Positions 959 to 41,969 of a stretch of DNA of 43,701 bases are shown here, one piece after another. Below the pieces are notes generated by a model. It saw nothing but the letters and a program-made list of their open reading frames with translations. It made no database searches and was not told the DNA's origin. Every line of letters starts with the position of its first letter. Positions within the stretch are counted from its first letter, which is position 1. Source of the DNA: Folioceros fuciformis (taxonomy: Eukaryota); assembly GCA_049999805.1 (NCBI GenBank), contig JBNGIO010005778.1:36155-79855 (forward strand), given 5' to 3'. The position numbers were made by a program, and so were the translations under genes.

Positions 959-2974
959 ATGAACCTAGCGTCTCTTGATCAACTTACAAAACAACTTGGT
1001 CGTCTCAACTTACAGTCCGGGCAGAACACCACCTTGCCAATGGCTTCTGGCTTGGGACTGTCCCACAATCTTGCAGGACCATCCTTCACTTCTGAGCTCA
1101 AGGAAAAGGACTGATTAAATGGAACACGTTACCAAGTTTGGAAAGTTCGAATGAAGTCCACTCTTGTAGCGTGAGGCGTATGGAGTGTGGTTGATGCTAC
1201 ATTCAAGAAACCTGACCCCAACTCACTGCCTCCCCCGTCAGTCAGTGACATCCAAAAATGGGACCAACTAAACTCAATAACACTTGCCCTACTCATCGGA
1301 GGTTTGGATGCTGACTTCGTACCTGATGTCGAGTATCTCACTAGTGCTTCCGAGATATGGGATCAACTTGCGGCCACATATGGGGTACAGAATATTCTTA
1401 CCTTGTGTGCAGCCAGGCAGGAATTCTATGGGCTACGTATGAGGGAGGGAGACAAAGTGGCATATCATGTCACCAAGTTCCGCCACCTGCGAGCTCAAAT
1501 AGTTGCCCTTGGCTGCAAGATGGACGAGGTAGAGGCTGTTGCTCAACTGATGAGTAGCCTCCCTTCTTCCTATCAAAACTTCATCTCCACACAGAATGCA
1601 CCCATCCAGACTGCTCATCAGGCATCCTCTGCTGGTACTCTTGTCACCATTAAACTTGAAGAAGTTATTGGTGTTCTATTCCAGGAAGAGCAAGGGTGCC
1701 TATTTGGCGGATCTAGAAGTAAAGCTGACAAAGTGCTTACCGCTCGGTTTAAGAAATCGAAGGGTAGGGCACATGGTGGTCGAGCTAATGGTGCATCATT
1801 CCCACCAGCAGCGCCCAAGCGGATAGGGAACTGTAATTGGTGTGGTGCCGCTAGACATTGGGCACGTGAGTGCCTCAACAAGAAATTTGGCGAACCACAG
1901 CGATCACAACCCACAAGACCGTCAGCGAACATTGTTGTCAAGGAGAAAGGAGAGAACTCTAAGGCTACAGTGAAGATACTCACAGTCTATATGAGGACTT
2001 CATCGCATGGCATAGATGACTGGTTCCTAGACTCAGGAGCCACTGCACATATCTGCAACAACAAAGATTTGTTCTTTAGTTTGACAGCGTGTCGAATGGA
2101 GGATAAAGTCTTGCTTGGTGATGAAAGGAGTGACACTAGCCTCCGAGTCGAAGGACATGGGGAATGTACCTTCATTCTCGATGACAACACAGTTCTGAAG
2201 GTCGTCGGAGTTCTATTTGTATCTGAGATGGCCAAGAATCTTCTGTCAATGAGCAAGATCATGCAACTTTGGACGTATGAGATACGTGTCGCTGATGATG
2301 CCTGCTGCTTTTACAGGAAGAATTCCTTTGGTGCATGTGCATTTAGAGGCGTCCTTGACCATGACTTGTACAGGCTAGAGCTGAGGTGTTCCCCTCACCT
2401 GTAAGTCACTCCTCCTTTACTGTCAACATGAAGACAACTAGGTTAGCATCCTTGTGGCACGCACGTCTAGGTCATGCTGACAGACACAAACTCATTGACA
2501 TGGCACGGATAGGCTTTCACAGAGAGCCCCTACCTGCTTGTTTTAGGGACCTCCCCATCTGTGAATCATGCATTCTCGTCAAACAGAAGGAGTTACCATT
2601 CCCTAAAGCTGCACACAGAGCAAAGACTGTCCTTGCTCTTGTACATGCTGATATCTTAGGCAAGATCCACGAGCCATCTTTGGGTGGAGCCTTATACTAC
2701 TTAACCCTTACCGATGACTTCAGTTAGTATTCTTGGACTATACCTATACAACTGAAAAGTGATACCCTTATGCACTTCAAGCAATGGCTTCCAATTGCGC
2801 AAAGACAATCTTGATGCCTCCTTAAAGTCGCGCGTAGCGACAATGGGACAAAGTTTGTCAATAATGCATTTGACAACTATCTCCAAGAACAAGACATATA
2901 AAGGCAGCTTATCGTTCCATATACCCAACAACAGAATGACAACGCCGAAAGAAACACTACTAGGGATGGCGAGG
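959..2974 (+). mobile_element. Degenerate, 3'-truncated Ty1/copia LTR retrotransposon (gag-protease-integrase; RT/RNaseH absent)
   Basis: The gag frame starts at ATG 959 and runs in frame through two TGA stops (~1112, ~1172) into ORF 1187-2404. That ORF has a CCHC knuckle (CNWCGAARHWAREC) and protease WFLDSGATAH. After a frameshift near 2400 come GAG-pre-integrase LWHARLGH...CESC and integrase core LVHADI...TLTDDFS*YSW...RSDNG...PYTQQQNDNAER/TLLGMAR with further stops. Protease-integrase order is the copia order. Confidence 0.92.
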
Positions 2975-3939: not shown

Positions 3940-6900
3940 ATGCAAGCAATCAGACCTTCCTTCTCCAGTTCTGGCAAGCGTGCGTGGACCTGGACCTGGA
4001 TCGGGGTGACAGTCACCCGACGTGCCAGAGGAGCGTGTCCGAGGACGATCGTCACCTTCACAAACATTCAGAATCAGCCACAGCAGGGGCGGGCTGGAGT
4101 AACTGCTGAAGCCGTGAGCGGACTCTGTCAGCAAGGGAACCTTCCTGAAGCCGTCGAAGCTCTGGGACTTTTGGTTTGCACCCACTCCCATCTTTTCAGA
4201 TCCCTCTTCTACACGGTCCTCAAAGAATGTGTGGCTACCAAGGATCTACTCCTGGGTCGCCGGGTTCATGCTCTCGCCGTCAAGAGGGGCTACGAGGCGG
4301 ACACGTTCTTGTGCAACCACATCCTGCGAATGTATGCCTCTCATGCCAGGTTGCAAGAGGCAATGGATGTGTTTACTCGGCTAGCCCAACCAGATGCCTT
4401 TACCTGGTCTGCCATAATTTCTTCCCATGTTAAACAGGGACAAGATAAGCGGGCTCTTCAACTCTATCACCAGATGCGCACGTCGAATGTGAAGCCAGAT
4501 GGCCATGTGTTTGTCGCAGCACTGCAAGCTTGTGCAAGGTCAGCTGACTTGGAATCTGGGCAGCAGGTGCATGCTCATGTCTTGGCTACTGACATGGAGC
4601 CCAATTTGTTTGTTTGGAATTGCCTGCTAGACATGTATGCAAAATGTGGTCGCTTGGATGACGCCCGTAGAGTGTTTGATTCGCTTCGTGAAAAGGATGT
4701 CGTGACTTGGACTGCCATGATAGCAGGATACTCTCAGCAGGGCATGGGGCAGGAAGCTCTTCATCTCTATAGGGCTATGCAGGAAGAAGGCATCGTGGCA
4801 CCCAATTCCATCACACTTGCTAGTCTCCTGCAGGCATGTGCAATTGTGGGTGCCCCGGCGTTAGCCCAAGGGAAGCAGCTTCATGCACACATCAGGGAAC
4901 GAGCACTTCAAGCTGACGTGTTTGTAGCCAACGGTTTAGTAAACATGTATGCAAAGTGTGGCAGCCTGGAAGAAGCTCAGCAAGTATTTGACGGCCTTGG
5001 TCACAAGAATGTGGTGACGTGGAGTGCCATGATCGCAGGGTATTCCCAGCGGGGCATGGGCCTGGGAGCCCTCCGTCTCTACAGTAGTATGCAAAGAGAC
5101 AGTATGGTTGTACCGGATTCTGTGACATTTCTGTGCCTCCTTCAGGCCTGTGCGAGTCTGGGCAGCTCCCAGGCTTTGGAGATGGGCAAGCAGCTGCATG
5201 CACAAATGGGAGGGCAGGGACTTGTCTCTGATGTGTTTGCAGCCAGCAGTTTGGTAAACATGTATACAAAGTGTGGCAGCCTGGAGGACGCTAGGAGTGT
5301 GTTTGATGGACTGGCGTCAAAGAATGTGGTGATTTGGAACGCAATGATTGCGGGGTACTCCCAGCGGGGTTTGCTCCTGGAAGCCCTTGATCTCTACACC
5401 GCTATGTACGAAGAAGGCAAGGCTGCACCTGATGCTGTCACGTTTGTGTCCCTGCTGCAGGCATGCGCAAGTGTAGGTACCCCGGCGTTGGAGAGGGGAA
5501 AGGAGCTTCATGCACAAACTAGAGAACAGGCGCTCCAGGCTGATGTCTTTGTTTCCAACAGCCTGGTGAACATGTACGCCAAGTGTGGCAGCGTAGAGGA
5601 TGCTCTGGCCGTGTTCAATGGAATTCCTCAGAAAGATGTGGTGACATGGAATGCGATGCTGGCAGGATATTCCCAGCAGGGCATGGGTGAGGAGGCCCTT
5701 CGCCTCTTTAGTGCTATGGAAGAGGGAGGTGTGGCTGCACCCAATTCCGTGACATTCGTGTGCCTGCTGCAGGCATGTGCAAGCGTGAGCACCCCAGCTT
5801 TGGAGAAGGGGAGGCAGCTTCATGCCCAAATTAGAGAACAAGGCCTTCAAGCTGATGTGTTTATAGCCAACAGTCTAGTAAATATGTACGCAAAGTGTGG
5901 CAGCCTAGAGGATGCTAAGGGCGTGTTCGACAGGCTTTTGAAGAAGGATGTGGTGACGTGGAACGCAATGATTGCAGGTTATTCCCAGCAGGGCATGGGC
6001 ATGGAAGCTCTTCGTCTTTTCTGTGGTATGCAAGAAGAAGAAGAAGAGGGAGGTCTGGCTGCACCCGATTATGTGACATTCCTATCCCTTCTACAGGCCT
6101 GCGCAAATGTGGGCACCCCAGCTTTGGAGCTGGGAAAGCAGCTTCATGCAAGGGTCAGAGAAGGAGAAATTCAGGCTGATGTAGTTGTTGGTGGGAGCCT
6201 GGTACAAATGTATGCAAAGTGTGGCACTCTTGAGGATGCTAGGGGCGTGTTTGAGGGACTGGTTCAGAAAGATGCGGTGGCATGGAATGCCATGATACGA
6301 GGATATGCCCAGCAGGGCATGGAGTGGGAAGCCCTTGGTCTTGGCAGGCGTATGCTAGAAGACATGGTTGCACCTGACTCTGTGACGTTCATGTCCCTTC
6401 TCCAGGCATGTGCTAGTGTGGGCGAGCCGGCCTTGGAGCAAGGGAAGCAGCTTCATGCTCAAGTCAGGGAGCAGGGATACGAAGGGGATCCTATTGTTGC
6501 CAGCAGTTTGGTGAACATGTATGCAAAGTGTGGCAGCTTGGAAGACAGTCAGAAAGTCTTCGACGGACTTGGTGAGAAAGACGTGGTGATGTGGACTTCC
6601 CTCATGGCAGCGTATTCCCACCAGGGCATTGGACATGAAGCTCTACGTCTTTTTCGTGCTATGCAAGGAGAAGGCATCGTTGCACCGGATTCTGTGACCT
6701 ATGTCTGCCTCCTCCAGGCGTGTGCAAGTTTGGGCACCCAGGCTCTGGAGACAGGAAGGCAGCTTCATGCACAAATTAGAGACCAAGGAATGGAATCTGA
6801 TGAGTTTGTAGCCAACAGTTTGGTGAGCATGTATGCAAAATGCGGCAGCCTGAGGGATGCTCGGGCTGTGTTTGATGCACTTGGGGGAAAAAGTGTGGTA

Positions 6901-7842
6901 ACTTGGAATTCCATGATTGCAGGGTATTCCCAGCAGGACAGGTTGCTGGAAGCACTTTCTCTCTACAGGGCTATGCGAGAAGGAGGTGTGGTTGAACCCG
7001 ATTGTGTGACTTACATGTGCCTCCTGCAGACGTGTGGAAATGTGGCAGCTTTGCATCTGGGAAGGCAGCTGCATGCGGTGATCGAGGAGCAAGGCCTTCT
7101 AGCTGGCGTTGCTGGCAGCTTGATTAACATGTACGGCAAGTGCGGTAGCATGGTTGATGCACAGCAGGTGTTTGAGGAATTGACTGAACGCGATGTTGGC
7201 ACTTGGAGTGCACTGATTGCAGGGTATGCCAGGAGGGGAGACTCTGATAAGGTGTTCGACCTGGTTCTCAAAATGGAAGAGGCTGGCACGTGGCCTGACG
7301 GCATCACTTTCCTGAGTGTTCTTGCTGCATGCAGTCATAGGGGTTTAGTGAACAAGGGGAGGCACTACTTTGATGCCATGAGCAGGCACCATGGCATCAC
7401 CCCAACGGCAGATCACTACACCTGCATGGTGGACCTGCTGGGTCGTGTCGGACAAGTGGAGGAGGCCCTTGCATTTGTAAGGGCGATGCCTGTACTTGCT
7501 GGTCCTGCGGTGTGGCACACTCTCTTGGGTGCCTGTCGAAAATGGGGCAAGGTAGAGGTGGGACGACATGCCTTTGATGAGGCAGTGAGGCTGGACCAGA
7601 GAGATGCCGCAGCATATGTGTTGATGTGGAACATATTCACGGATGCGCACATGTGGGAGCAGGCACAAGAGATTCAGGCGAGGCGAAAAGGAATCAGGGC
7701 CTGGAAACAACCAGGCCAGAGTTGCTGGACAGACATGGACGGACTGGTGCACAGTTTCTTAGTTGGGGATGCCGAGCGGAAGCAGATGACCTTTTGCAAA
7801 TCGGAATACTTAATCAATGACGAGCGAACAACCAACCTGTGA
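3940..7842 (+). CDS. PLS-class PPR protein (about 10 P-L-S triplets, P2-L2-S2, E1-E2), ending just after a WW-like PG box; organellar RNA-editing specificity factor
   Basis: Single ~1300-aa ORF (first ATG 3940) with repeated MYAKCGSLEDA / VVTWNAMIAGYSQQG / VTFVCLLQAC motifs, LSVLAACSHRGLV, HYTCMVDLLGR, E-domain WHTLLGAC...AYVLMWNIF, then WKQPGQSCWTDMDGLVHSFLVGD. No HxE or CxxC deaminase motifs follow. Confidence 0.95.
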   Translation: MQAIRPSFSSSGKRAWTWTWIGVTVTRRARGACPRTIVTFTNIQNQPQQGRAGVTAEAVSGLCQQGNLPEAVEALGLLVCTHSHLFRSLFYTVLKECVATKDLLLGRRVHALAVKRGYEADTFLCNHILRMYASHARLQEAMDVFTRLAQPDAFTWSAIISSHVKQGQDKRALQLYHQMRTSNVKPDGHVFVAALQACARSADLESGQQVHAHVLATDMEPNLFVWNCLLDMYAKCGRLDDARRVFDSLREKDVVTWTAMIAGYSQQGMGQEALHLYRAMQEEGIVAPNSITLASLLQACAIVGAPALAQGKQLHAHIRERALQADVFVANGLVNMYAKCGSLEEAQQVFDGLGHKNVVTWSAMIAGYSQRGMGLGALRLYSSMQRDSMVVPDSVTFLCLLQACASLGSSQALEMGKQLHAQMGGQGLVSDVFAASSLVNMYTKCGSLEDARSVFDGLASKNVVIWNAMIAGYSQRGLLLEALDLYTAMYEEGKAAPDAVTFVSLLQACASVGTPALERGKELHAQTREQALQADVFVSNSLVNMYAKCGSVEDALAVFNGIPQKDVVTWNAMLAGYSQQGMGEEALRLFSAMEEGGVAAPNSVTFVCLLQACASVSTPALEKGRQLHAQIREQGLQADVFIANSLVNMYAKCGSLEDAKGVFDRLLKKDVVTWNAMIAGYSQQGMGMEALRLFCGMQEEEEEGGLAAPDYVTFLSLLQACANVGTPALELGKQLHARVREGEIQADVVVGGSLVQMYAKCGTLEDARGVFEGLVQKDAVAWNAMIRGYAQQGMEWEALGLGRRMLEDMVAPDSVTFMSLLQACASVGEPALEQGKQLHAQVREQGYEGDPIVASSLVNMYAKCGSLEDSQKVFDGLGEKDVVMWTSLMAAYSHQGIGHEALRLFRAMQGEGIVAPDSVTYVCLLQACASLGTQALETGRQLHAQIRDQGMESDEFVANSLVSMYAKCGSLRDARAVFDALGGKSVVTWNSMIAGYSQQDRLLEALSLYRAMREGGVVEPDCVTYMCLLQTCGNVAALHLGRQLHAVIEEQGLLAGVAGSLINMYGKCGSMVDAQQVFEELTERDVGTWSALIAGYARRGDSDKVFDLVLKMEEAGTWPDGITFLSVLAACSHRGLVNKGRHYFDAMSRHHGITPTADHYTCMVDLLGRVGQVEEALAFVRAMPVLAGPAVWHTLLGACRKWGKVEVGRHAFDEAVRLDQRDAAAYVLMWNIFTDAHMWEQAQEIQARRKGIRAWKQPGQSCWTDMDGLVHSFLVGDAERKQMTFCKSEYLINDERTTNL

Positions 7843-26100: not shown

Positions 26101-27228
26101 CTAACCAGGAATTATGACGGTAGAGCCTGTGGTCTTGCGAGATTCCAGATCCGCATGGGCCTTGGCAACCTCCGAGAGAGGATAAGTCTGATTCACACGG
26201 ATTTTCAACACACCAGACGACAGTTGCGCAAACAACTCACCAGCAGTTGACAGTAGCTCATCCCTGGTAGCAGTATATTGCATCAACGAGGGCCTGGAGA
26301 GGAACAAGGACTTGGCTGCCAGTGCCTGAATAGGCACGGGATCCACAACCCCAGATGCATTCCCGAAGCTCACCATGTACCCGCGCACAGCCAGACAATC
26401 GAGGGACCCCTGAAACGTATCCCTCCCTACGGAGTCATACACCACATTTACCCCCTTGCCACTGGTCATGTCTTTCACCCTCGCCACATAATCCTCCTCA
26501 GCAGTAACAATCACATGGTTACAACCATCCTCGGTAGCCTGGGCAGCCTTCTCCCTCGTCGACACCACCCCGATCACCACAGCACCCAAAGCCCTAGCCC
26601 ACTGGGTGAGCAGAGACCCCACCCCGCCAGCTGCCGCATGCACCAACACATGGTGCCCGGGCTCCACTTTGAAGCACCTTCGGACAAGACACTGCGTCGT
26701 CATGCCCTTGAGCAGCACTGCCGCCACAGTAGTAGCGTCCAGAGTGGACGGCACAGGCACCACCTTCTCCGCTGCAATGAGCCGTTCCTCGGCATACGCC
26801 CCCATGATCCCAGCGTAGGCCACAACATCCCCGACCTGCCGCCCTGTCAGGCCCGGCCCGACTGCCGTCACGACTCCCACGCCTTCCATGCCCGGGGTGA
26901 AGGGTAGGCTGGCCGTCTTGTAAACGCCCTTCCGGAAGTAGACATCGATGAAGTTGAGCCCGATTGCTTGTTGCCGGATGCGGATTTCCCCACTCCCGGG
27001 CTCCCCGACCTCCACATCCTCCAGCTTCAGGACCTCTGGACCCCCCAGCTCGTGCACTCGCACAGCCTTTACCATGCCGGAAAGCTCGCTGCTCACTCTC
27101 ACACCGACACGACGAGCTCTCGCCGCTCCGCTCACACGCTTGCGATTGCCAAGGAGGAGGGGAAATGCGGTGACTGCGCTTCTCACAGGCACACTCGTGT
27201 TGCCTTTAATGAAAACCCTGGAGGCCAT
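26101..27228 (-). CDS. NADPH:quinone oxidoreductase (zeta-crystallin/Qor, MDR family) with probable N-terminal transit peptide
   Basis: MVKAVRVHELGGPEVL, AIGLNFIDVYFRKGVY, PGMEGVG, nucleotide-binding HAAAGGVG, VYDSVGRDTF, C-terminal AHADLESRKTTGSTVIIP. An Arg/Ser/Ala-rich leader starts at ATG 27228. The reading frame is uninterrupted. Confidence 0.93.
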   Translation of the reverse strand: MASRVFIKGNTSVPVRSAVTAFPLLLGNRKRVSGAARARRVGVRVSSELSGMVKAVRVHELGGPEVLKLEDVEVGEPGSGEIRIRQQAIGLNFIDVYFRKGVYKTASLPFTPGMEGVGVVTAVGPGLTGRQVGDVVAYAGIMGAYAEERLIAAEKVVPVPSTLDATTVAAVLLKGMTTQCLVRRCFKVEPGHHVLVHAAAGGVGSLLTQWARALGAVVIGVVSTREKAAQATEDGCNHVIVTAEEDYVARVKDMTSGKGVNVVYDSVGRDTFQGSLDCLAVRGYMVSFGNASGVVDPVPIQALAAKSLFLSRPSLMQYTATRDELLSTAGELFAQLSSGVLKIRVNQTYPLSEVAKAHADLESRKTTGSTVIIPG

Positions 27229-31509: not shown

Positions 31510-33918
31510 TCATAATTGGGCATCATGCCCCATAGCCGCTGCTAGAGTTGTGAGTCTTACAACTAGCTCAAGAAGCTGTCGAGGCTGTGACGATAAGTGA
31601 TTCTTCTCACGTCGCAGCACCGCAAACGAATGCAACCTGTTGTCATGCTCCAACCAGCTCTCGCCTACCTTTTTCCAGGCCCCCGCCTCTACTCTCATGG
31701 TGTCGATTTGGGCAGCGTCGTCCCACATTTGAGCATGCGAGTAGATGCTGGACATGAGGACGTATGCAGCAGAATGTCCCGCATCCAAGGCTATGGCCTG
31801 CTCGAATGCCCGTCTGCCCAGCCCCACATCCATGTGCTTCCTGCACCCGCCCAGCAGCGACACCAAGACAGGCAGCTGGCAGGAGGCGAGGGGCATCCTA
31901 GACACCACGGCCTCCGCCTGCCTCAGCAGCCCTGCACGACCCAGCAGATCCACCAAGCTCACATAGTGCTGTGTGCCGGGTACCAGCCCGTGATGTGTGC
32001 ACATGCAAGCAAAGAGCTCCACACCCTGGCTCACCATCCCGGCATGGCTACATGCGCACAGCAGCGATGCAAACGTCACTGCATTGGGCTTCAAGGAGCT
32101 TCCTGGTCCCTGCACTTGCATCCTCTCAAAGCACTGGAAGCTGTTGATGTAATCGCCCAGACGAGCATACCCTGCGATCAAGGCATTCCAAGTGACCACG
32201 GTGCGCTGAGCCTGTGGCAGTGAGAGGAAAACAGCTTCCGCCTCCGCCATGCCCCCACATTTGCCGTAAGTGTGGATGAGAGTGTTTGCCAGCTTCACAC
32301 TGCTGGGCTGGTGGAGCAACAATGAGCTGTCGTGAATCTCACGGCACAGATGGAGGGCTCCAGTGTTGCCGCATGCCTTCAGGATGGCCACAAATGTGGC
32401 CTCATTAGGCATGCACTCCTCCTTCATCCGGCTGTAGTAAAGCTGCAGAGCCATATGTCCCTGCACCTGCTGAACGTATCCAGCAAACATGGTGTTCCAG
32501 GACACCACATTGCGTGCGGGCAGATTTTCGAACACCAGCCAGGCATCGTCGATGCTGCCACACCTTGCATACAGGTGGATCAGTGTGTTGCCCACAAAGA
32601 TGTTGGATTCTACACCTCTGCTCACAACTTGGGCGTGCACCACCTTCCCTTGTTGCAACGCTCCCGCCTTTACACATTGCCCGCCCACAGTGGTGTCCTG
32701 TTCCATGCCTGCCATGTTGCAGCATGCTTGCAGTAAGGTCACAAAGGTTCGTTCATCTGGCCTCACGCCCTTCTTCTGCATTTCCGCATGCAGTTGCCAG
32801 ACCTTGTCCACCTCCTGCTGCTGGACACATCCTGCCATGACTGCATTCCACGTCACCACGTCGTGATGCTCCATCTTGTTGAACACCAACCATGCATCCT
32901 GAACGCTGCCACATTTCAAGTACATGTCCACCAGAGTGTTGGCCACGAACATGTCTGACTCGCATTGCATTCTCACCGCTTCCGCATGTACCAGCTTTCC
33001 CTTTTGCAGGGATGCCAGTTTCAATTTCACAGAGCCAGCAGGCTCGTCTTCGGGGGGGTCTGTTGGAGGGCAATCCGTCTCAGCAGCAGCTTCCAGACCT
33101 GCAAGGTTTCCACATGCTTTTAGCACACTCACCAGCGTCCGTTTGTTTGGCATCACGCCTTCCTGCTGCATTTCCATGAACAACTGCCAGGCCTGCTTGC
33201 CCTGCTCATGCTGGCTACATGCTGCAACCATGGCAGTCCATGACACCACATCCTGGGCCGGCAGCGAGCGGAACACTTGCGTCGCTTCCGCAATGCTCCC
33301 GCAGCTGGCATACATGTGTATCAAGGTGCTGCCAACAAACACATCTCTTCCGTAACCCATTCTAACCGCTTCAGCGTGTACCTTCCTGCCCTTCTCCAGG
33401 TCTGCAAGAATGCGACACACTTTGAGCATGCTCACAAAGGTGTAGTGATTGGGCTCCACACCTGCTTCATGCATTCGTTCGTACAGCTTTACAGCCTTCT
33501 CAGCTTCACCTGAAGTGGCATGACCCGCAAGGATTGCCGTCCAAGAGAAAACAGTCCGTTGACACTGGGACAAGCTGTTGAAAACTTGAAGAGCATCGCA
33601 CAGGCCTCCGCACTTGACGAACGTGTCCACAAAATTCTCGCCCAGAACCATCAACAGCTGGCTGCATTGTCTTGAGTTTGACATGTGAGCGTACAGGCGC
33701 TTGGTCTCGACCAATGCCTTCTTTTCCGAACACAACTGCAAGAGAAATCTACAAGTGTGCACCGCAGGAACATAGGCCTGCTGCTCCAGCAGCTGCAAGA
33801 AGGCATCCACCGCCTTCTTCACATCACCCTCCTCACAGCACCTCTTAAGAAGGTTGTCTGTTACGTCATCTGTACCATACCTGCTGGACCATTTCACTTG
33901 AAGTCCTGCTGCTGCCAT
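31510..33918 (-). CDS. PLS-class PPR protein with long-L (LL) motifs and E domain, no DYW deaminase
   Basis: The open frame extends up to ~34125; the first in-frame ATG is at 33918 and an upstream exon is possible. PLS triplets, CACSHAGMV, HYVSLVDLLGRAG, E domain AYVLMSSIY, terminal WKKVGESWLEHDNRLHSF, then stop. Confidence 0.93.
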   Translation of the reverse strand: MAAAGLQVKWSSRYGTDDVTDNLLKRCCEEGDVKKAVDAFLQLLEQQAYVPAVHTCRFLLQLCSEKKALVETKRLYAHMSNSRQCSQLLMVLGENFVDTFVKCGGLCDALQVFNSLSQCQRTVFSWTAILAGHATSGEAEKAVKLYERMHEAGVEPNHYTFVSMLKVCRILADLEKGRKVHAEAVRMGYGRDVFVGSTLIHMYASCGSIAEATQVFRSLPAQDVVSWTAMVAACSQHEQGKQAWQLFMEMQQEGVMPNKRTLVSVLKACGNLAGLEAAAETDCPPTDPPEDEPAGSVKLKLASLQKGKLVHAEAVRMQCESDMFVANTLVDMYLKCGSVQDAWLVFNKMEHHDVVTWNAVMAGCVQQQEVDKVWQLHAEMQKKGVRPDERTFVTLLQACCNMAGMEQDTTVGGQCVKAGALQQGKVVHAQVVSRGVESNIFVGNTLIHLYARCGSIDDAWLVFENLPARNVVSWNTMFAGYVQQVQGHMALQLYYSRMKEECMPNEATFVAILKACGNTGALHLCREIHDSSLLLHQPSSVKLANTLIHTYGKCGGMAEAEAVFLSLPQAQRTVVTWNALIAGYARLGDYINSFQCFERMQVQGPGSSLKPNAVTFASLLCACSHAGMVSQGVELFACMCTHHGLVPGTQHYVSLVDLLGRAGLLRQAEAVVSRMPLASCQLPVLVSLLGGCRKHMDVGLGRRAFEQAIALDAGHSAAYVLMSSIYSHAQMWDDAAQIDTMRVEAGAWKKVGESWLEHDNRLHSFAVLRREKNHLSSQPRQLLELVVRLTTLAAAMGHDAQL

Positions 33919-35299
33919 GTCATCCTCCTGCCAGGGCTTAGGAGAAACGACAGGCAAGCGAGAGACTGGTGGGCGGCAAGCAGGTGCTTGCTTCGTCAAC
34001 CTACGACATCGGCAGCCAAGCTGGGATCCCTTCCAGATCCAGGTCCCGGTCCAGGTCCAACTGCTGCAACAACGTAGAAACAAGTCATTCTGCTGGATTA
34101 GGAGGAAAAAAAAGGAAACGGCCCATCAAGCATGCTTACCAACACCCAGATGCCCTGCAACCAGGTGCTGCAGATTGTCTCATCAACCTCGGGGGCCCAT
34201 GATTTGCTCCCTTCCCATCCTCCATCTCCAGGTGCTTGACCAGCATAAGAACCTTGTTCCAAGAGAACAATGAATAGCACCTCATGCTGTATCCAGTGGG
34301 GGCCCGTGTCGAACTGGTGCCACAGCACGATTACCACCCTGCCTGCCTCACACGAATAACAACCACGCTCCCTCCTACATGTTGCAGGTGCTTGCTTTCA
34401 TGAGAGTCACGACAACAAATATCATAGCCCTTGCATCCATCGAGCACCACAAAGGAGAAGACAACAACAGCACCGGTACCGACACACACACCATAGTAGA
34501 CAGGGCAGGCATGTTCCGTTGTCAGATAAGCCACCAGCAGCTATGTGCCGCTCCAGCTGCATCTCGGTCAGGCGCTGCTGCTGCTACTCTGCACCTGCTG
34601 CCAGTGGTCCAGTGACGATTTTGGGCATGTGAATCGTCATCGTTGAATTGCAGCCCGGGTCCTTACAGGGCGAGTATACCATTTGTGGATCCATGGGACT
34701 CGGACTGGGAAGGGACACCCGGGGTGCATAGCACCTAAACTTACTTCAAGCTCTCCAGCGAAGAAGGAGGGGGTGGAGAGGGGACGGGTCGCGACATGAG
34801 CACAGGCGGCGGTCCTTGTGCCTCGAAGCGTCTTGTGTCATGCCTGAAACAGAGCAAAGGCAGCCCCAGGTCACACATCGAGGAATGGTGCACAAGGCTA
34901 TTCAGTCAGCGGGGATCAGCTGGACGCAAGTCGGGTGGGTGTCTGCCCCTTCCCGTCTGCCTCACAACTTTTTTTGTTGTACAATTCCCATGGTTTGGTC
35001 CGATTACATTGTGGTAAGTTGTTGCGACTGCGACTGCTACAGCTGCAGATGAGCCAAGTACCGATCCTCGTTGCGGCAAGGTACACATACGTTTGACATT
35101 GCCCAATGTTTTGGGTCCTGGGTTCGAGGCATTTTGCATTTGACCATGCCTGATGGGAACAGACCCACCACCCGGCAAAGGCAGAAGCGCTGGAAGTTTG
35201 GAGACAGCCTGATGAGTATGGCAAATCCGTCAGGTATGCATCCTACTCAGCAGCAGCAGCCACCTTCACCAGCACAATGGGTGTGCCTGTCCGGTCCTG

Positions 35300-38200
35300 A
35301 TGAATCATCCATCATGCAGTTACAGGGTGGGCAGGACGGGGAGGTCTCCTCTACAGAGGAGTCACAAGGTGGGTGATGAGGATGGAGTGCTGGGTGAAGC
35401 CCTTCGGACAATGGCCCTTATGGACCAGCAAGGAAGTTTCCTGTCCACCGATGTGTTGTACGGAGCCCTCAAGGGATGCATCCAGGACAAGAACGTGGAC
35501 ATGGGCAGGCGTGTTCATGGCCTTATTGTGAAAAGCGGGTACGAGCTTGATCCATTTCTGGCAAACCACATCATCCGCATGTATGCTGCGGCTGGGAGTC
35601 TGCCGGAAGCAAACCAAGTGTTTTTCAAGCTGCCTACACCAAACGCATTTGTGTGGACCTCCATTATTGCAGCTCATTTGGAGCACGGCGAAGCAGATGG
35701 AGCTGTCAAACTGTATAGACGGATGCGAGAGGCAGCTGCTGTGAGGCCAGACGACCATCTCTTTGTGGCAGTCCTGAAAGCCTGTGCTGCTTCAGGTGAT
35801 TTGGCTGCTGGCAAGCTGGTGCATGCCCATGTGGTCGACTGTGGGTTGGAGCAAAACGTTTTTGTCGGGAACTCTCTGGTGGACATGTATGCAAAATGTG
35901 GGAGCATTCAGGATGCCCGCACCGTGTTTGATAGGTTGCTCGGCAGAGATGTGGTCACGTGGAGCATCATGCTTGCAGCATGTATCCAGCATGGATATGG
36001 TGAGGAGGCTTTGAAGCTGTATGAGAGCATGAAGGAGGATGACATTAGTCCGGACAGGGTCATGTTTGTGAACCTGTTGAAAGCCTGTAGCAGCACAGGA
36101 GCGGTCCAGGCAGGCAGGCAGATGCACTGTCAGATCGTCAAAACGGGATTCGAGTCAGACTTGGGGGTGGGGAACACACTGGTGGACATGTATGCCAAGT
36201 GCGGGGACTTGGTGGCTGCTCGTAGAGTGTTTGACCAGTTGGTTTGCCGTAATGTGGTGACTTGGAATGCCATGATTGCAGGCTATGTTGCTCAAGGGCG
36301 TGCTCAGGAGGCCCTCTTCCTTTACGAAGCTCTGCTGCAGGAGAAATCGACGGGGGTGGTACCGGACAATGTCACTTTCATAAGTATCTTGAAAGCGTGT
36401 GGAAGTGTGCAAGCGATTCAGGAGGGCAAGCGGATTCATTCCGAAATTGGGAAGAGAGGCTTTGGTGCAGATGTCTCATTGGGGAATGCTGTGGTTGATA
36501 TGTATGCCAAATGTGGAGACTTGTGTGATGCTCGCACAGTTTTCGACATGATGCCGAGCAGGAATGTGGTTTCATGGAATGCCATGATTGGCGGTTATGC
36601 CCAGCACGGGCAGGGTGAGGAAGCATTGAAGCTGTTTGATAGCATGCAGCAGACTAGTGTCTCGCCACCAGACAACATAACATTTGCCAGCGTTTTGAAG
36701 GCTTGTGGCAGCATGGGAGCCCTGCAGGTAGGCAAGCGGATTCATGACCAGATTATGAACAGAAATCTGCACTGGGATGTGGTGGTGGGAAGCTCACTGG
36801 TGGACATGTACGCTAAATGTGGGAGCCTTGATACAGCTCGCCAAGTCTTTGACAGCTTGCCTGTCAGAAATGTTATAACATTTACTACGATGATCAGTGG
36901 ATACGTGGAGAATGGTTGTCATCAAGAAGCTCTGAGCCTGTATGTAGATATGGAACAGCAGCATGGTGTGGCAGCAGACCAAGTCACCCTGGTGAGTGCC
37001 TTGAAAGCGTGTGCTAGCCTAGGTGCCCTGCAGATGGGTAAAGACATCCATGCGCAAATCGAGGAAAGGGACTGTGCAATGGATGTCTCCGTGGGGAATG
37101 CCCTGTTGGAGCTGCATGCAAAATGTGAGAACCCCCACTGCGCGCGCCTGGTGTTTGACAGGCTAAAGATTAAGAATCTGGTGACATGGAATACCATGAT
37201 TGCAGCATATGTGGGGCATGGACATGGGCAGCAGGCTCTTCATCTATACTCTGAGATGCTGCAAACAGGCATCGCTCCAGACTTTGTGACTCTGGTGAGC
37301 ATGGTGAAGGCTTGTGGCATGGCTGGAGCCATAGACGAGGGCAAGCGCATTCATGCCCATATACTGCAGAAGGTGGGACTGCTAGAAGAAGACCAAGATA
37401 GCATGTGGGTGCTTGGGAGTGCCCTGGTGTCCATGTACGGTGGGTGCGGGAGCCTGGAGGATGCCCGTAGGGTGTTTTACAGGCTACCAAAACGAAATGC
37501 CGTGACCTGGACGGCGCTGATGGATGCCTACGGCCAGCACAATGAGGGCAGCATGGCAATGCAGTGTCTGGAGGAGATGATCCAAGAAGGTGTGCAGCCT
37601 GATGCTGGAACGTTTACTTGTTTGCTTGTGGCTTGTAGCCATGCAGGGCTGGTGAATGAGGGGCTGCAGTACTTGGAAAGCATGGAAGCAGACCACGGAA
37701 TCAAGCCCAGGCTTGAGCACTATAACTGTGTAGTGGACCTGCTTGCCAGGTCAGGTCGGCTGCATGAAGCGGAGGCCCTTTTGCGCGGCATGCCAGCATT
37801 GAAGCTGGACAGCGTTGGTTGGACTGCGTTACTGAGTGCATGCAAGACTTATGCTGGCGGCCGTCTGGACGTGGCAAGGCGCTGCTTTGAGCAACTGGTG
37901 CAGCTGGATCCCCAGGGAGCTTCTGGGTATGTGCTCATGTCAGACATATATGCCAGTGCTGGGAGGTGGGAAGAGATGGAGGCGGTAGATCAGCTCAGGC
38001 TACGTGCTGGAGCTGATAAGAAGCCCGCCCAGGCAAGTATCCAGGTCGAGGGTAAGGTCCACCAGTTTGTTGTCGGGGCGAAGAGGGACGACACTTCGGC
38101 CAAGCTGTCCAGTTTGATGAATCTGGAAACGGTTACCAGGGAAGAAACTGCCGACAAGTACGACGACGCAGGCCTGTGTGGGCATGCTGAGAAATTGGCT

Positions 38201-38392
38201 TTGGCATTTGGCCTTCTGAATACCCCTGCTGGTACGAGTCTTGTTGTGGTCAAGAATTTGCGAATGTGCAACCAGTGTCACAGCGGCACCAAGATGATTT
38301 CTAGGATAGAAGGTCGAGAGATTATTGTAAGAGATGCCCTCCGCGTGCACCACTTCAAGGACGGTGCTTGCTCTTGTGGGGATTCTCCTTGA
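35300..38392 (+). CDS. PLS-class PPR-DYW protein of the DYW:KP subtype (candidate U-to-C RNA editing factor)
   Basis: 1030-aa ORF with PLS triplets, E1-E2, KKPAQASIQVEGKVHQFVVG (KP box), LCGHAEKLALAFGL, KNLRMCNQCH, and RDALRVHHFKDGACSCGDSP stop. Confidence 0.95.
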   Translation: MNHPSCSYRVGRTGRSPLQRSHKVGDEDGVLGEALRTMALMDQQGSFLSTDVLYGALKGCIQDKNVDMGRRVHGLIVKSGYELDPFLANHIIRMYAAAGSLPEANQVFFKLPTPNAFVWTSIIAAHLEHGEADGAVKLYRRMREAAAVRPDDHLFVAVLKACAASGDLAAGKLVHAHVVDCGLEQNVFVGNSLVDMYAKCGSIQDARTVFDRLLGRDVVTWSIMLAACIQHGYGEEALKLYESMKEDDISPDRVMFVNLLKACSSTGAVQAGRQMHCQIVKTGFESDLGVGNTLVDMYAKCGDLVAARRVFDQLVCRNVVTWNAMIAGYVAQGRAQEALFLYEALLQEKSTGVVPDNVTFISILKACGSVQAIQEGKRIHSEIGKRGFGADVSLGNAVVDMYAKCGDLCDARTVFDMMPSRNVVSWNAMIGGYAQHGQGEEALKLFDSMQQTSVSPPDNITFASVLKACGSMGALQVGKRIHDQIMNRNLHWDVVVGSSLVDMYAKCGSLDTARQVFDSLPVRNVITFTTMISGYVENGCHQEALSLYVDMEQQHGVAADQVTLVSALKACASLGALQMGKDIHAQIEERDCAMDVSVGNALLELHAKCENPHCARLVFDRLKIKNLVTWNTMIAAYVGHGHGQQALHLYSEMLQTGIAPDFVTLVSMVKACGMAGAIDEGKRIHAHILQKVGLLEEDQDSMWVLGSALVSMYGGCGSLEDARRVFYRLPKRNAVTWTALMDAYGQHNEGSMAMQCLEEMIQEGVQPDAGTFTCLLVACSHAGLVNEGLQYLESMEADHGIKPRLEHYNCVVDLLARSGRLHEAEALLRGMPALKLDSVGWTALLSACKTYAGGRLDVARRCFEQLVQLDPQGASGYVLMSDIYASAGRWEEMEAVDQLRLRAGADKKPAQASIQVEGKVHQFVVGAKRDDTSAKLSSLMNLETVTREETADKYDDAGLCGHAEKLALAFGLLNTPAGTSLVVVKNLRMCNQCHSGTKMISRIEGREIIVRDALRVHHFKDGACSCGDSP

Positions 38393-39059
38393 GCCCTAGG
38401 AAGGACTGGCAAAGCAGGTCGGATAAATTATTCTACACAACATAAGCTCCAGCTGAAGCTGGAGCAAGTTGCTCACCTACTTACAGTTTGCACTAAATCT
38501 CGATCTTCCTACTTTACAGTTTGCACTACAACTCGACGTACGATACACGTACCCGCAGAGTAGCTACTCCAGCATCTTCCATGGTTTACCATCAGACTAC
38601 CTTCTGCAACTCTAACCAATGGTGCAGAAGAAAAAATATCTGCTGCGAACGACAGAACGACCGCATGAAAAGAGGAGAGGGCGTGACCTGTGGTGAATTG
38701 TGCACTGTGCCACACAGTCGGGCTGCTGCCAATAAAGAGGGCATTGAGCTTCACTCCGCTGGCGATCCACAAAGTTGCCAACCCTGACAGCATGCTGCCT
38801 CGCAAGACAAACGGTTTACCTCTTCTTCCCCAGCAAGATTGTCAACAACACCAGGCATGAGTCTTCCCATTGGGTTGGCCAGCATGTCAGGGAAAGGAAG
38901 GGAAGGGGAGGGGAAGGGAAGGACAGGAAAAGCAGTCTTCTCCTGCCCTAGCTGACAGTTGACAAATTCATCCTGGCAATGAAAAGCGAAATCTATACCC
39001 CAAAACCCACACCACTGCAAGAGCAGGGTGACTTTCACTAGTACTTAAATCTTGGCTGG

Positions 39060-41089
39060 TCAAGCACAGAGAACTACGAGACACGTTAGTGTAGACAAGA
39101 CAATCAGAAGAAGGCTAGTGATTGCAGCGGGTCCTCTCAAGGGTAGTGAAGGGGCTGCGCTGGGCAGTTGGGGATAATCATCGGGTTCAGGTAATACACA
39201 GTCGTCACCGTTGAAGTAAATTCTGCGAGGGAATGCCCAACCTTGCTTGAAAGTGAAGGTGGAGGGATCCTTCCGAAATAGAATCTCCGACTGCACATTC
39301 CCGTCAGGCCCAGCTGACATAAGCATGTCGTTGAAGTATTTGATCCCGTAGAAGACTGCTGTATTGTCTGCAGGCAAGGAGCAAAAGGATAGTGTGAATG
39401 AGGTACAACACGTAAGCCCTAGGGTGTGAGCAAAAGGGTGGCAAAAGCAGCAGCGAAGTCCAGCGAAGCAAATAGACTGAGAAGGAAGAAAAGTAGGAGC
39501 CGGGAGGATGGATGACGCAAGCAGGCAGTCAGACAAGCAAAGGCAAAGGAGGAAGTATTTTACTGATGTCGCCGTAAGGAGAAATGCCCCTGTAGGTGAA
39601 ACTAAAAGCTTGGGTGAAGTTGTCAAAGTTGGGATGCTGCACCACAATGTTCCACTGTGTGTAATTGGTGAAAAGGTTCCTGTTGGTGATGGTGATCTTC
39701 GCCCTCCAATACTCCACATAATTGGTTTTGACGTGCCAGTGTATCTTCACCGGGCACATGTCGTTGGTGCAATACAATCCAGGATTCTTTGAGTCCCTCC
39801 TGAGAGCAGCTGCGACAGCAAGTTTGTTATCCCTGCAAGCACAGCAGATGCAGTAGGGCGTGTAAGTGCAATGAAGGGTATGGCAGCAGCAGCAAGGAGG
39901 AACGAGAGAAAGCGAGGCACATTGGGGGTGGTCTCACGGGTCCACACAAGTTGGTCCATAAGGACTGTTCATATCGGCTTGGCAAGCACAGGAGCATGTT
40001 TGACAAGGGACAATCTTTTCGTCGTAGAAGGCCGAATATGAGACGCAGCAGGTGGGTGCCTTGTGTGCCAGGAGTTGTGAGTAGACACAGGTGACATTCC
40101 AGGTCACTGCAAGCCAGAGCGAATTGCCAGTATCGTCAGGAGGAGAAGAAGGCTGATGGTGACGAAGGCAGGCATTGCAGCAGCATGAGGAGCACTTACT
40201 CAGAGCTTGCGAGAACCTTCTGCCATCTGGGGTAGGGAACAGCGTCTGCAGGCCCACTACCGCGGGACCACAGGTGTAACCGGGACCCGGCGTAGACAGC
40301 GTGAAGTCCTTAGGCAGCAACACACTGGTGTTGGAAGTACCAGCCTTGCCCACCATGACCTGAAAGGAAGCCACAGAATTGGCTGGGTCCTGCAAGTAGG
40401 AAGCCAGCACGCCGCCCCGGCAGCAGTTGCCTATCTGATTGTTGTAGGGCACTCCGGGGAGCAAGTCCACGATCTGCGGGTCTCGCTTACAGCAGTGCGG
40501 CAAGGTTCCCTGTTTAAAAGCGCTGCAGTCGCCCTGCATGGTGGCCTGTGCTCCCACCATGGTCCAGATCACCTCGTCCTTCGCCCAAGTCCACCCCAGC
40601 GTCCATCCCGGGGACTGGATGTGCCGGTACTGTTGGAGATTGTACATGGACACCACGGCCTGCAGCAACCCAACATCATTGCATGCCATGGCATTGCATA
40701 GCGTTGCATAGCATACCTCTCTTGGATCAAGGCCAAGGCCAAGGCCCAGGCAAAGGGAAGGCGAGGGGAGGGGCAACGGGAGCATGCTGCTTACCACATA
40801 ACCGTCGCCAGTCCAACTCATGAGATCCCATTTGATTGTAATGGTGCCGTAAGGGTCCAGGACGTCGAGCGCATCTGCAGCGGAGCCAGGGAGGCCGTGT
40901 GAGCAGGAGGAAGGGAAGGAGGCACTGGGTGCTCGGATCCGCAATGCCCACAATGCAGAACGAATGGGCAGTGGATGACAACTGACCGAGCCTGAAGGGA
41001 AGCGTCGAGGCGAGGAGGACGAGGAAGAGCAGGGGCCATGGTGAGGCCCCTGCCGCTGGTTGTGGAAGGAAGGCGGAAAAGGAGGCCAT
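39060..41089 (-). CDS. COBL: COBRA-like GPI-anchored protein, about 6 exons
   Basis: Signal peptide from ATG 41089; LDPYGTITIKWDLMSWTGDGYV; YRHIQSPGWTLGWTWAKDEVIW; PHCCKRDP; CCVS motif (TCCVSYSAFY); CTNDMCPVKIHWHVKTNY; GWAFPRRIYFNGDDC; hydrophobic C-terminal GPI signal. Confidence 0.95.
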
Positions 41090-41969
41090 GTTCCCTCGCT
41101 GTTCCTGCTCCTGCAACTGGTCTGGTTCACCCACGCTATTCTTTCCTCGGCCTGCAGCTGCGGCTGCTGCTGCTGCTGCTTGCTGAGACAATCAGGCACA
41201 GAGTGGGCGAGCGAGCGAGCGAGAGAGAGCGCGCTGCTGCTAACACCAGGAGGAGGAGGAGGAGGAGGAGGAAACAGCTGCAGGCTGGGCTGGCTTAGCG
41301 TAGACCGGCCTGGCATGGGATTGCTCGTGCTGGTTTGCTGCTCCCGAGTCCTCCTCCTCACTGCCCAGAGGCGCCGGATGAGGTGGAGGCGGGAGGCTGG
41401 GCTTCAGCCCTTGAAATGGAAGAAGGTGTGTGCGAGACAGCCAGCCAGCCATCCATTGCCTGGGTTGTGAAAAGGAAAATCCAAGGGGAAGAAAGGACCC
41501 ACAACTGGCACACCACCGGCACCGGCACCGGCACTGGCCTGCGCTGCGCTGCGCGAGTAACGGAGAAGCGACGGTGAAACGCGAGCTCATTGCATTGAGA
41601 TAGTTTTCTTTCCTATTCGTTTCATCCTTTCTCTTGCCCCCAACCACCCATAGTACCCGTCTGCCAACCGACTTCTCGCTACATGCCACTCTCCGTCTCT
41701 CTCAAAGGGGATGCACTAACTACCACATCACCGACGCACCTTGACGCAGCTGTTGCCCTGTCGCCTTTCAGCCGCGTCTCTCATCACACTCTAACCGACC
41801 GACTAACTCACAACCGGAGCGATGGGGCCAGGAGGGGCGGGAACTCGCGTCCTTGCTGCGATTGCGGCTCGTACTACTGCCGCCACTGCAGTGAGCCTCG
41901 AACAACAGTGGAAGCAGCATCTGGTGGTAGGAAGTTGGCTGGCCAAAGGGCAGCTGAACCGAAGGGAGG

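What the first reader, a model, noticed from the sequence alone, without database searches (positions are those of the whole stretch)
38018..38392. Complete DYW:KP domain: candidate reverse (U-to-C) RNA editing enzyme
Seen: the PG box is replaced by KPAQASIQV, the first zinc motif is HAEK rather than HSEK, CxxC (CNQC) is intact, and the protein ends SCGDSP rather than DYW. Established: KP-type DYW domains are restricted to hornworts, ferns and some lycophytes, the lineages with U-to-C organellar editing, and designer DYW:KP proteins have shown U-to-C activity in heterologous cells. Inference: this is a natural full-length U-to-C editor whose DSP terminus differs from the described DYW, GRP and DRH ends.
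Basis: partly seen in the sequence, partly recalled or inferred. Interest (0 to 1): 0.85.

Follow-up and report, generated by a model that had tools for sequence, protein, structure and literature searches.

The report
KP-type DYW RNA-editing factor gene
This is an intact plant nuclear gene for an RNA-binding repeat protein that ends in the variant deaminase domain linked to uridine-to-cytidine editing in organelles; it belongs to a large known family, and its only unusual trait is a shortened regulatory loop.

Summary
An uninterrupted 1030-codon ORF (35300..38392, +) encodes a PLS-class PPR protein.

The domain classes as DYW:KP, not DYW:PG. It has the KP box, lacks the xHP tripeptide, and carries HAEK, the conserved lysine 88, Met92 and RVHH. 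Home-made profiles score it 180 bits (KP) against 144 (PG). In a 168-domain tree it sits in the non-PG half (support 100), next to the DRH and GRP ends that a paper ascribes to hornworts.

So the refuting condition is not met, and "candidate U-to-C editor" stands as an inference. No activity was tested, and only 3 of 7 designer KP proteins were active.

Two points need correcting:
- The DSP end is not distinctive. KP termini vary widely: 24 different triplets among 37 KP domains, and one other also ends in DSP.
- The domain is not fully typical. At 124 residues against the usual 132-133, it has the shortest gating region of the 37, and the gating beta-finger is missing.

A relative's contig matches the 3' 2.1 kb with 165 substitutions and no indel. 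A spliced RNA-like assembly also covers that part.

Verdict: a new member of a known kind, of modest interest.

The parts
35300..38392 (+). Intronless ORF of 1030 codons plus stop: PLS-class PPR protein with E1, E2 and a DYW:KP domain
   Evidence: upstream in-frame stop at 35213-35215
35300..35446 (+). N-terminal leader, residues 1-49. The first 25 residues are basic, Ser-rich and free of acidic residues; a possible organelle presequence (inference only)
   Evidence: no targeting predictor was available
35447..37810 (+). PPR array of 23 motifs: L-S, six P1-L1-S1 triplets, then P2-L2-S2
   Evidence: Manual segmentation; Pfam PPR, PPR_1, PPR_2 and PPR_3 hits
37811..38017 (+). E1 (37811-37918) and E2 (37919-38017) motifs
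   Evidence: Pfam E_motif 7.8e-10; segmentation
38018..38389 (+). DYW:KP-type deaminase domain, 124 residues (907-1030)
38021..38047 (+). KP box (KPAQASIQV), in the place of the PG box
38078..38182 (+). Shortened gating region, residues 927-961. It has 35 aa against a median of 44 in 37 KP-type domains; there is no xHP and no beta-finger motif
   Evidence: 12-residue gap against 9kfx_A; pLDDT below 50 and no strands for residues 949-959
38183..38194 (+). HAEK: zinc-binding His962, the KP-type Ala, the catalytic Glu964 and Lys965
   Evidence: roles taken from PMC9478123 and PMC11713852
38252..38269 (+). KNLRMC: Lys985 is the equivalent of Lys88, and Met989 of the KP-type Met92
   Evidence: PMC11845758, PMC9478123
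38267..38281 (+). CNQCH zinc motif. It has Gln where 105 of 109 HSE-type and 19 of 19 DRH/GRP-clade domains have Asp
38342..38389 (+). C-terminal part: RVHH (Val where PG types have Phe/Tyr/Trp), CSC and the terminal D-S-P

Best explanation
The gene is a nuclear gene of a land plant, probably a hornwort. It encodes an organelle RNA-editing specificity factor of the PLS-class PPR family, fused to a KP-type DYW domain.

Inferred mechanism:
- The 23-motif PPR array binds one strand of a chloroplast or mitochondrial transcript.
- Under the PPR code the P and S motifs read 5'-nYGnUGnYUnYUnAGnYUnAGnU. Motif S2 sits over position -4, which places the target base four nucleotides downstream in the zinc site of the DYW:KP domain.
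- By analogy with designer KP proteins, the target is a uridine. The active-site lysine (Lys985, equivalent to Lys88) attacks its C4, next to the zinc ligands His962/Cys990/Cys993 and Glu964. The base then reads as cytidine.

Shown here: the gene is intact, all catalytic and zinc motifs are present, the domain classes and groups with KP-type domains, the fold matches solved PPR-DYW structures, and a relative carries an indel-free counterpart.

Inferred only: organelle targeting, the RNA target, the direction of the reaction, and whether the enzyme turns over.

The shortened gating region suggests a domain with little or no steric autoinhibition.
For: - Gene and family: ORF and motifs. Pfam shows PPR, E motif and DYW_deaminase at 1.3e-31.
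- KP features by alignment column: K-P-A box, nothing in the xHP columns, HAEK, Lys88, Met92, CxxCH, Val113/Ala116/Val119, Asp131.
- Profiles built from session hits: KP 180.3 bits, HCE 148.2, PG/HSE 143.6. With the class-defining residues masked the scores are 163.0, 137.4 and 134.3.
- Tree of 168 domains. The window lies in the 67-row non-PG side, split from 101 HSE/DYW rows with SH-aLRT 100. Within it, the window sits in a 30-row KP clade that also holds the DRH- and GRP-ending domains, and it is sister to P0004 (87).
- Structure: AlphaFold2 mean pLDDT 89.2. Best Foldseek match is 9kfx_A, a synthetic PPR-DYW bound to RNA (E 1.1e-22, TMq 0.79). OTP86 DYW chains give TMt 0.73-0.80.
- Conservation: a contig of a relative (X4) matches 36254-38390 with 165 substitutions and 0 gaps. 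The match stops at the first base of the stop codon.
- RNA: run X1 carries spliced joints in the neighbouring gene that the DNA runs X2 and X3 lack. One of its contigs covers 36253-39367 with no difference.
- Literature (passages read): KP domains occur only in lineages with U-to-C editing; designer KP2, KP3 and KP6 convert U to C; the HAA and AxxA mutants abolish this; Lys88 is essential (PMC9478123, PMC11845758, PMC11713852).
Against: - No activity, target or localisation was tested.
- Only 3 of 7 designer KP proteins worked, and the DRH-based design was not among them. KP6 also edits C to U, and one to three substitutions switch its direction (PMC9478123, PMC11845758).
- By the Lys88-anchored numbering the window has Gly64 and Val113, the residues that pushed KP6 towards C-to-U. 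It also has Ala116 and Val119, which pushed KP6 towards U-to-C.
- The gating region is the shortest of 37 KP domains. Removing the beta-finger of OTP86 markedly reduced C-to-U editing (PMC7611903).
- The 30-row KP clade has only 82% support, and the smallest strongly supported set holding the window is the 67-row mixed set.
- My class labels and profiles are home-made, not the PPRfinder models.
- Of 34 codons changed among the 38 listed X4 differences, 20 are non-synonymous, so constraint on the N-terminal PPR part is only moderate.
- RNA contigs give neither strand nor level, and this contig is merged with the convergent neighbour.
Confidence: 0.6

Rival explanations
1. It is a C-to-U editor, or one that works in both directions, despite its KP-type motifs. 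The zinc site and glutamate would carry out ordinary hydrolytic deamination of a cytidine.
For: Designer KP6 performs both reactions, and replacing Lys88 turns KP proteins into efficient C-to-U editors. E64G and L113V pushed KP6 towards C-to-U (PMC11845758), and the window has Gly and Val at the equivalent positions. All residues needed for deamination are present.
Against: Gly64 and Val113 occur in all 11 rows of the window's group and in the printed DRH- and GRP-ending rows. The GRP-based designs KP2 and KP3 showed U-to-C editing only (PMC9478123). Lys88, Ala66 and Met92 are all KP-type. The domain scores about 36 bits higher on the KP profile than on the PG profile.
Confidence: 0.15
2. It is a catalytically weak or dead paralogue. 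It would be either a young duplicate on its way to decay or an RNA-binding PPR protein that no longer edits, because the gating beta-finger has collapsed.
For: The gating region is the shortest of 37 (35 aa against a median of 44), and the finger motif is absent. Residues 949-959 are modelled with pLDDT below 50 and without strands. Deleting the finger in OTP86 markedly reduced editing (PMC7611903). The CxDC aspartate, present in 105 of 109 HSE-type domains, is Gln here. PPR families in these plants are very large and turn over quickly (PMC13386178). 20 of 34 changed codons against X4 are non-synonymous.
Against: The 1030-codon frame is open. The core from HAE to the end is 53-58 of 72 identical to ten relatives that also have degenerate fingers, while the gating part is only 6-13 of 26-32 identical. 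So the core is conserved while the loop drifts. X4 shows 165 substitutions and no indel over 2137 bases, and the likeness ends at the stop codon. An RNA-like assembly covers the region. Alanine substitutions in the gating region kept more than 90% activity in a PG-type protein (PMC13324415).
Confidence: 0.2
3. It is a chance ORF or an assembly artefact, not a real gene.
For: None found. PPR repeats do break short-read assemblies: the contigs of all four runs break near 35900 and 36250.
Against: Pfam E-values reach 5e-102 for PPR_2 and 1.3e-31 for DYW. Two DNA runs and one RNA-like run of the same coded organism cover the gene without differences apart from those breaks. 2194 proteins match the domain.
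Confidence: 0.01

Closest known systems
Hornwort DYW:KP proteins of the DRH and GRP subgroups (Gerke et al. 2020 as cited in PMC9478123), the basis of designer KP1 (DRH) and KP2/KP3 (GRP)
   Same: K-P-A box, no xHP, Gly-HAEK, Lys88, KNLRMC, RVHH, CSC and the same overall fold. All fall in the same 30-row clade of the tree. The domain scores 164.3 bits on a profile of that clade alone.
   Different: The window lies outside the 19-row DRH/GRP clade (SH-aLRT 95). It ends D-S-P. Its gating region has 35 residues against 44-45 and lacks the finger motif that 19 of 19 of them keep. It has CNQC where 19 of 19 of them have CxDC. I could not read Gerke et al. 2020 or Gutmann et al. 2020 (not held), and supplements are closed. 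Those sources may therefore already describe this grade of KP domains.
Designer KP6 and fern DYW:KP proteins (e.g. the Adiantum and Ceratopteris proteins P0027 and P0034)
   Same: KP box, HAEK, Lys88, Met92 and variable ends. KP6 is the best-studied active U-to-C enzyme (PMC9478123, PMC11845758, PMC11713852).
   Different: The named fern proteins form a separate 7-row clade (SH-aLRT 98). They are 48-51% identical to the window's domain. They carry Glu, Asp or Lys where the window has Gly64, and mostly Cys, Gln or Ser where it has Arg118.
DYW:PG cytidine deaminase domains (OTP86, PDB 7o4e/7o4f; DYW1, 7w86; synthetic PPR-DYW with RNA, 9kfx)
   Same: Deaminase fold with HxE and CxxCH, a second zinc site and the active-site lysine. 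Sequence E-values are 2.6e-42 to 6.1e-23. TMq is 0.79 to 9kfx_A, and TMt is 0.73-0.80 to OTP86 chains.
   Different: KP replaces PG, there is no xHP, Ala replaces Ser in HxE, Met replaces Val before the first Cys, Val replaces Phe in RFHH, and the end is not DYW. There is a 12-residue gap in the gating region. The domain falls on the other side of the 100%-supported split.

Membership tests
DYW:KP domain | Lys-Pro pair in the N-terminal box in place of Pro-Gly (PMC11845758) | tested here: met
   K908-P909-A910
DYW:KP domain | Three-to-four-residue deletion, with xHP missing (PMC9478123, PMC11713852) | tested here: met
   No residue in the xHP columns of the 168-row alignment
DYW:KP domain | HAE instead of HSE within an intact HxE(x)nCxxC signature | tested here: met
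   HAEK at 962-965 and CNQCH at 990-994
DYW:KP domain | Conserved active-site lysine (Lys88), and Met92 where PG types have Val95 | tested here: met
   KNLRMC at 985-990
DYW:KP domain | The last three residues are not DYW; the Asp is conserved except in the GRP group | tested here: met
   Ends G-D-S-P. 24 different triplets among 37 KP rows.
DYW:KP domain | Usual domain length of 132-133 residues | tested here: not met
   124 residues. The gating region has 35 aa against a median of 44 and is the shortest of 37. This is a typical length rather than a stated criterion: the design study dropped only domains of 115 residues or fewer (PMC9478123).
DYW:KP domain | Groups with KP domains rather than PG in profiles and trees | tested here: met
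   180.3 bits against 143.6. The window is on the non-PG side of a split with SH-aLRT 100, but the KP clade itself has only 82. The official PPRfinder models were not available.
DYW:KP domain | Occurs in hornworts, lycophytes or ferns | tested here: inconclusive
A hornwort is suggested by the DRH/GRP-ending nearest relatives and by two truncated, E+-like PPR genes in the window. PMC13386178 reports the E+ subgroup as enriched only in hornworts.
DYW:KP domain | U-to-C editing activity | not testable with these tools
   Needs an editing assay or a knock-out
PLS-class PPR editing factor | P-L-S triplets followed by P2-L2-S2, E1 and E2 before the DYW domain | tested here: met
   Manual segmentation gives 23 motifs plus E1 and E2. 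Pfam PPR families and E_motif hit. PPRfinder was not available.
Hornwort DRH or GRP subgroup | Last three residues DRH or GRP, and membership of that clade | tested here: not met
   Ends DSP and lies outside the 19-row clade (SH-aLRT 95)
DYW:PG domain | PG box, xHP, HSE, Val95 and a terminal DYW | tested here: not met
   None of the five is present

The most novel reading that the evidence does not exclude
The window's protein and about ten relatives (P0003-P0009, P0012, P0018, P0022) may form a natural grade of KP-type domains that has given up the gating beta-finger and the Asp of CxDC while conserving the deaminase core. If these proteins are active, the gated autoinhibition described for C-to-U DYW domains would be dispensable for the KP reaction. 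They would then be natural, always-open U-to-C enzymes of a type that none of the seven designer KP proteins is described as representing.
Probability: 0.2. Interest if true: 0.55.

Novelty: new member of a known kind. Interest (0 to 1): 0.3.

Why it matters
U-to-C editing is still mechanistically unresolved. In the papers I read, activity was shown only for consensus-designed proteins. These appear to cross-link to their RNA through Lys88, and I found no report of a native factor matched to its site. Any intact, conserved native KP gene is therefore a usable test case.

This gene is one of a large family already catalogued across many hornwort, lycophyte and fern genomes, so on its own it changes little. 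Its one specific value is the naturally shortened gating region. That offers a ready-made test of whether the gating finger, which matters for C-to-U DYW domains, is needed for the reverse reaction.

Tried and rejected
- Whole-genome search: no genome is held for this window, so paralogues could not be counted.
- Earlier findings: none on record for this genome or for these words.
- Naming the organism: a search with the neighbouring quinone oxidoreductase gave only flowering-plant names at 66-75% identity, plus one unnamed 84% hit. The protein atlas gave only 'Streptophyta'. 'Hornwort' therefore stays an inference.
- Source papers: Gerke et al. 2020 and Gutmann et al. 2020, which define the KP, DRH and GRP groups, are not held. 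Supplements are closed. Class definitions were taken from passages in later papers.
- RNA holders: no listed holder is on record as RNA. X1 is only guessed to be RNA. I treat it as RNA-derived because its contigs skip five minus-strand CT..AC intervals in the neighbouring gene, and the DNA runs show none of these joints. Strand, ends and level cannot be read from contigs, and I drew no conclusion from depths.
- 5' exon: an upstream spliced exon, suggested by pieces of X1 record 1, could not be resolved.
- Selection: only 38 X4 differences within the coding sequence were printed, out of 284 differences in the table for all runs (244 not shown). The 14:20 synonymous to non-synonymous count covers the N-terminal part only, and the contigs there may be paralogues.
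- DSP as a new terminus class: rejected.
- Remnant DYW domains behind the two other PPR genes: none found.
Full report
**What is there**

The region 38018-38392 is the 3' end of one uninterrupted ORF, 35300..38392 on the + strand, 1030 codons. The nearest in-frame stop upstream lies at 35213-35215.
- KKPAQ starts at 38018.
- KPAQASIQV lies at 38021-38047.
- HAEK lies at 38183-38194.
- CNQC lies at 38267-38278.
- SCGDSP lies at 38372-38389, followed by the stop codon.

Pfam finds PPR families (PPR_2 at 5e-102), the E motif and DYW_deaminase (1.3e-31 on the last 263 residues). My manual segmentation gives:
- a 49-residue leader;
- 23 PPR motifs: L-S, six P1-L1-S1 triplets, then P2-L2-S2;
- E1 and E2;
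- a 124-residue DYW domain.

It is the only full DYW domain in the window.

**Which kind of DYW domain**

The papers I could read define DYW:KP against DYW:PG by six features (passages of PMC11845758, PMC9478123, PMC11713852):
- a Lys-Pro pair in place of Pro-Gly;
- a three-to-four-residue deletion that removes xHP;
- Ala for Ser in HxE;
- Met92 for Val95;
- a variable end in place of DYW;
- a conserved Lys88 that is essential for U-to-C activity.

The window has all six.

To build a comparison set I collected 52 relatives from the word-indexed search and the best 150 of 2194 from the full HMMER search. Together these gave 198 different proteins. I kept the 167 with a complete domain and dropped 31 fragments.

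By alignment column the 168 rows, window included, fall into four groups:
- 109 HSE-type rows, nearly all with PG, xHP and a DYW-like end;
- 37 KP-type rows with HAE, Met92 and no xHP;
- 16 HCE-type rows;
- 6 others.

Profiles built from these groups, without the window, score the window's domain as follows:

| Profile | Bits | Bits with defining residues masked |
|---|---|---|
| KP | 180.3 | 163.0 |
| HCE | 148.2 | 137.4 |
| HSE/PG | 143.6 | 134.3 |

A quick maximum-likelihood tree separates 101 rows (100 of them HSE-type) from a 67-row set with SH-aLRT 100, and the window lies in the 67-row set. Within that set:
- The window falls in a 30-row, all-KP clade (support 82, not strong).
- It is sister to P0004 (87).
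- It lies outside a 19-row clade (95) that holds all 12 DRH- and GRP-ending rows of the sample.
- The named fern proteins (Adiantum, Ceratopteris) form a separate 7-row KP clade (98).

My labels and profiles are home-made; the PPRfinder models were not available.

**Fold**

AlphaFold2 on the last 263 residues, with 47 homologues as alignment, gives mean pLDDT 89.2 and pTM 0.77. The best structural match is the synthetic PPR-DYW bound to RNA, 9kfx_A (E 1.1e-22, TMq 0.79). The OTP86 DYW chains follow at TMt 0.73-0.80 and DYW1 at 0.68. Sequence search of the PDB finds the same three molecules.

The domain has 124 residues. The papers describe KP domains of 132-133 residues. The stretch between the first hairpin and HxE has 35 residues here. 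The median is 44 in the 37 KP-type rows and 48 in the HSE rows, and the window's is the shortest of the 37.

In OTP86 this stretch is the gating domain (H837-G891). Replacing its beta-finger with three glycines markedly reduced editing (PMC7611903). The alignment to 9kfx shows a 12-residue gap exactly there. The model has a low-confidence loop without strands at residues 949-959.

The trait is shared with the window's nearest relatives. The table compares the window plus the ten other rows outside the DRH/GRP clade with that clade.

| Trait | Window's group (11 rows) | DRH/GRP clade (19 rows) |
|---|---|---|
| Finger motif kept | 2 of 11 | 19 of 19 |
| Gating length | 35-55 aa | 44-45 aa |
| Asp kept in CxDC | 3 of 11 | 19 of 19 |

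For comparison, 105 of 109 HSE rows keep that Asp. Yet the core from HAE to the end is 53-58 of 72 identical between the window and each of the ten rows, against 6-13 of 26-32 in the gating part. The loop drifts while the catalytic core is held.

**The DSP end**

It is not distinctive. PMC11845758 states that KP termini are diverse. The 37 KP rows carry 24 different last triplets: DRH 8, GRP 4, and DSP 2, the second being P0021. The Asp that the papers call conserved is present.

**Is it a living gene**

Three runs of one coded organism hold 0.88-0.97 of the gene's sampled words.

One of them, X1, is only guessed to be RNA. Its contigs skip five intervals with minus-strand CT..AC ends in the neighbouring COBRA-like gene. 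The DNA runs X2 and X3 show none of these joints, and an X2 contig reads straight through the first two. I therefore treat X1 as RNA-derived. One X1 contig covers 36253-39367 with no difference and continues into the neighbour's spliced exons. The 3' two-thirds of the gene is thus present in RNA-like data. Strand, ends and level cannot be told, and the contig is merged with the convergent neighbour.

A contig of a second coded organism (X4) matches 36254-38390 with 165 substitutions and no gap. The match ends at the first base of the stop codon. That is what a conserved coding frame looks like, and it shows the short gating region is kept at the same length.

Of the 38 printed X4 differences inside the coding sequence, all in its first 852 bases, 14 codons change synonymously and 20 non-synonymously. 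This suggests moderate constraint, but the sample is partial and the contigs there may be paralogues.

**Which organism**

It is unnamed. The window holds two more PLS-class PPR genes (3940..7842 + and 31510..33918 -). Both stop about 20-45 residues after a PG-box-like start, with no DYW remnant behind them. [quoted passage not shown] Together with the DRH/GRP-ending relatives, which PMC9478123 ascribes to hornworts, a hornwort is the likely source. This is inference.

**How it most likely works**

Under the PPR code the P and S motifs read 5'-nYGnUGnYUnYUnAGnYUnAGnU, with S2 over position -4 (the code table is recalled). The DYW:KP domain would then act on the base four nucleotides downstream.

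By analogy with designer KP2, KP3 and KP6, the substrate is uridine. Lys88, here Lys985, is needed and appears to form a covalent link with the RNA (PMC11845758, PMC11713852).

This is inference, and there are real grounds for caution:
- Only 3 of 7 designs were active, and the DRH-based design was not among them.
- KP6 also edits C to U.
- One to three substitutions flip its direction. The window carries two residues of each tendency: Gly64 and Val113 against Ala116 and Val119. These four are shared with the printed DRH- and GRP-ending rows.
- Whether native enzymes turn over is unknown.

**Verdict**

This is a real, intact gene, apparently conserved in a related species, for a DYW:KP PPR protein. 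It is a legitimate candidate U-to-C editing factor, but it is one of a large catalogued family. The shortened gating region is the only unusual trait. Four literature searches turned up no description of such KP variants. However, the two founding papers and all supplements were out of reach, so I cannot say it is undescribed.

Noticed in passing
window 3940-7842 (+) and 31510-33918 (-): Two further long PLS-class PPR genes (1300 and 802 aa). Both have an E motif and stop about 20-45 residues after a PG-box-like segment, and no DYW remnant follows in any frame. They look like E+-type truncated editing factors, which would need a DYW domain supplied in trans.
   Followed up: partly
window 39060-41316 (-): A COBRA-like gene (Pfam COBRA 3.1e-59) convergent with the PPR gene. 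Contigs of X1, and in part of X4, skip five minus-strand CT..AC intervals (39368-39563, 39832-39936, 40107-40199, 40659-40793, 40875-40986), and the two DNA runs show none of these joints.
   Followed up: partly
window 26101-27228 (-): An intronless 375-aa zinc-type quinone oxidoreductase with an N-terminal extension. It is 66-75% identical to flowering-plant proteins, and the best hit is an unnamed 84% protein.
   Followed up: partly
window 1439-2404 (+): A copia-type LTR retrotransposon gag / Pol beta-barrel fragment.
   Followed up: no
window 35587-37180: Short-read contigs of all four runs break or make false joints inside the PPR array, near 35900, 36252 and 37172-37179. Many loose ends read like other PPR genes. 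This is the expected assembly confusion among paralogous repeats, not a feature of this locus.
   Followed up: no
window 34063-35259: An X1 contig that covers the minus-strand PPR gene carries about 234 letters where the window has 427 bases (34064-34490). It may skip a further stretch before 35259. This could mean spliced 5' UTR exons or merged divergent transcripts; it was not resolved.
   Followed up: no
protein set (e.g. P0032, P0033, P0037, P0046): 16 domains with HCE in place of HSE/HAE, mostly with a K-P-G box, xHP retained and non-DYW ends. They sit between the PG and KP types in the tree without forming one clade. They may correspond to a third published class that I could not check.
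   Followed up: no
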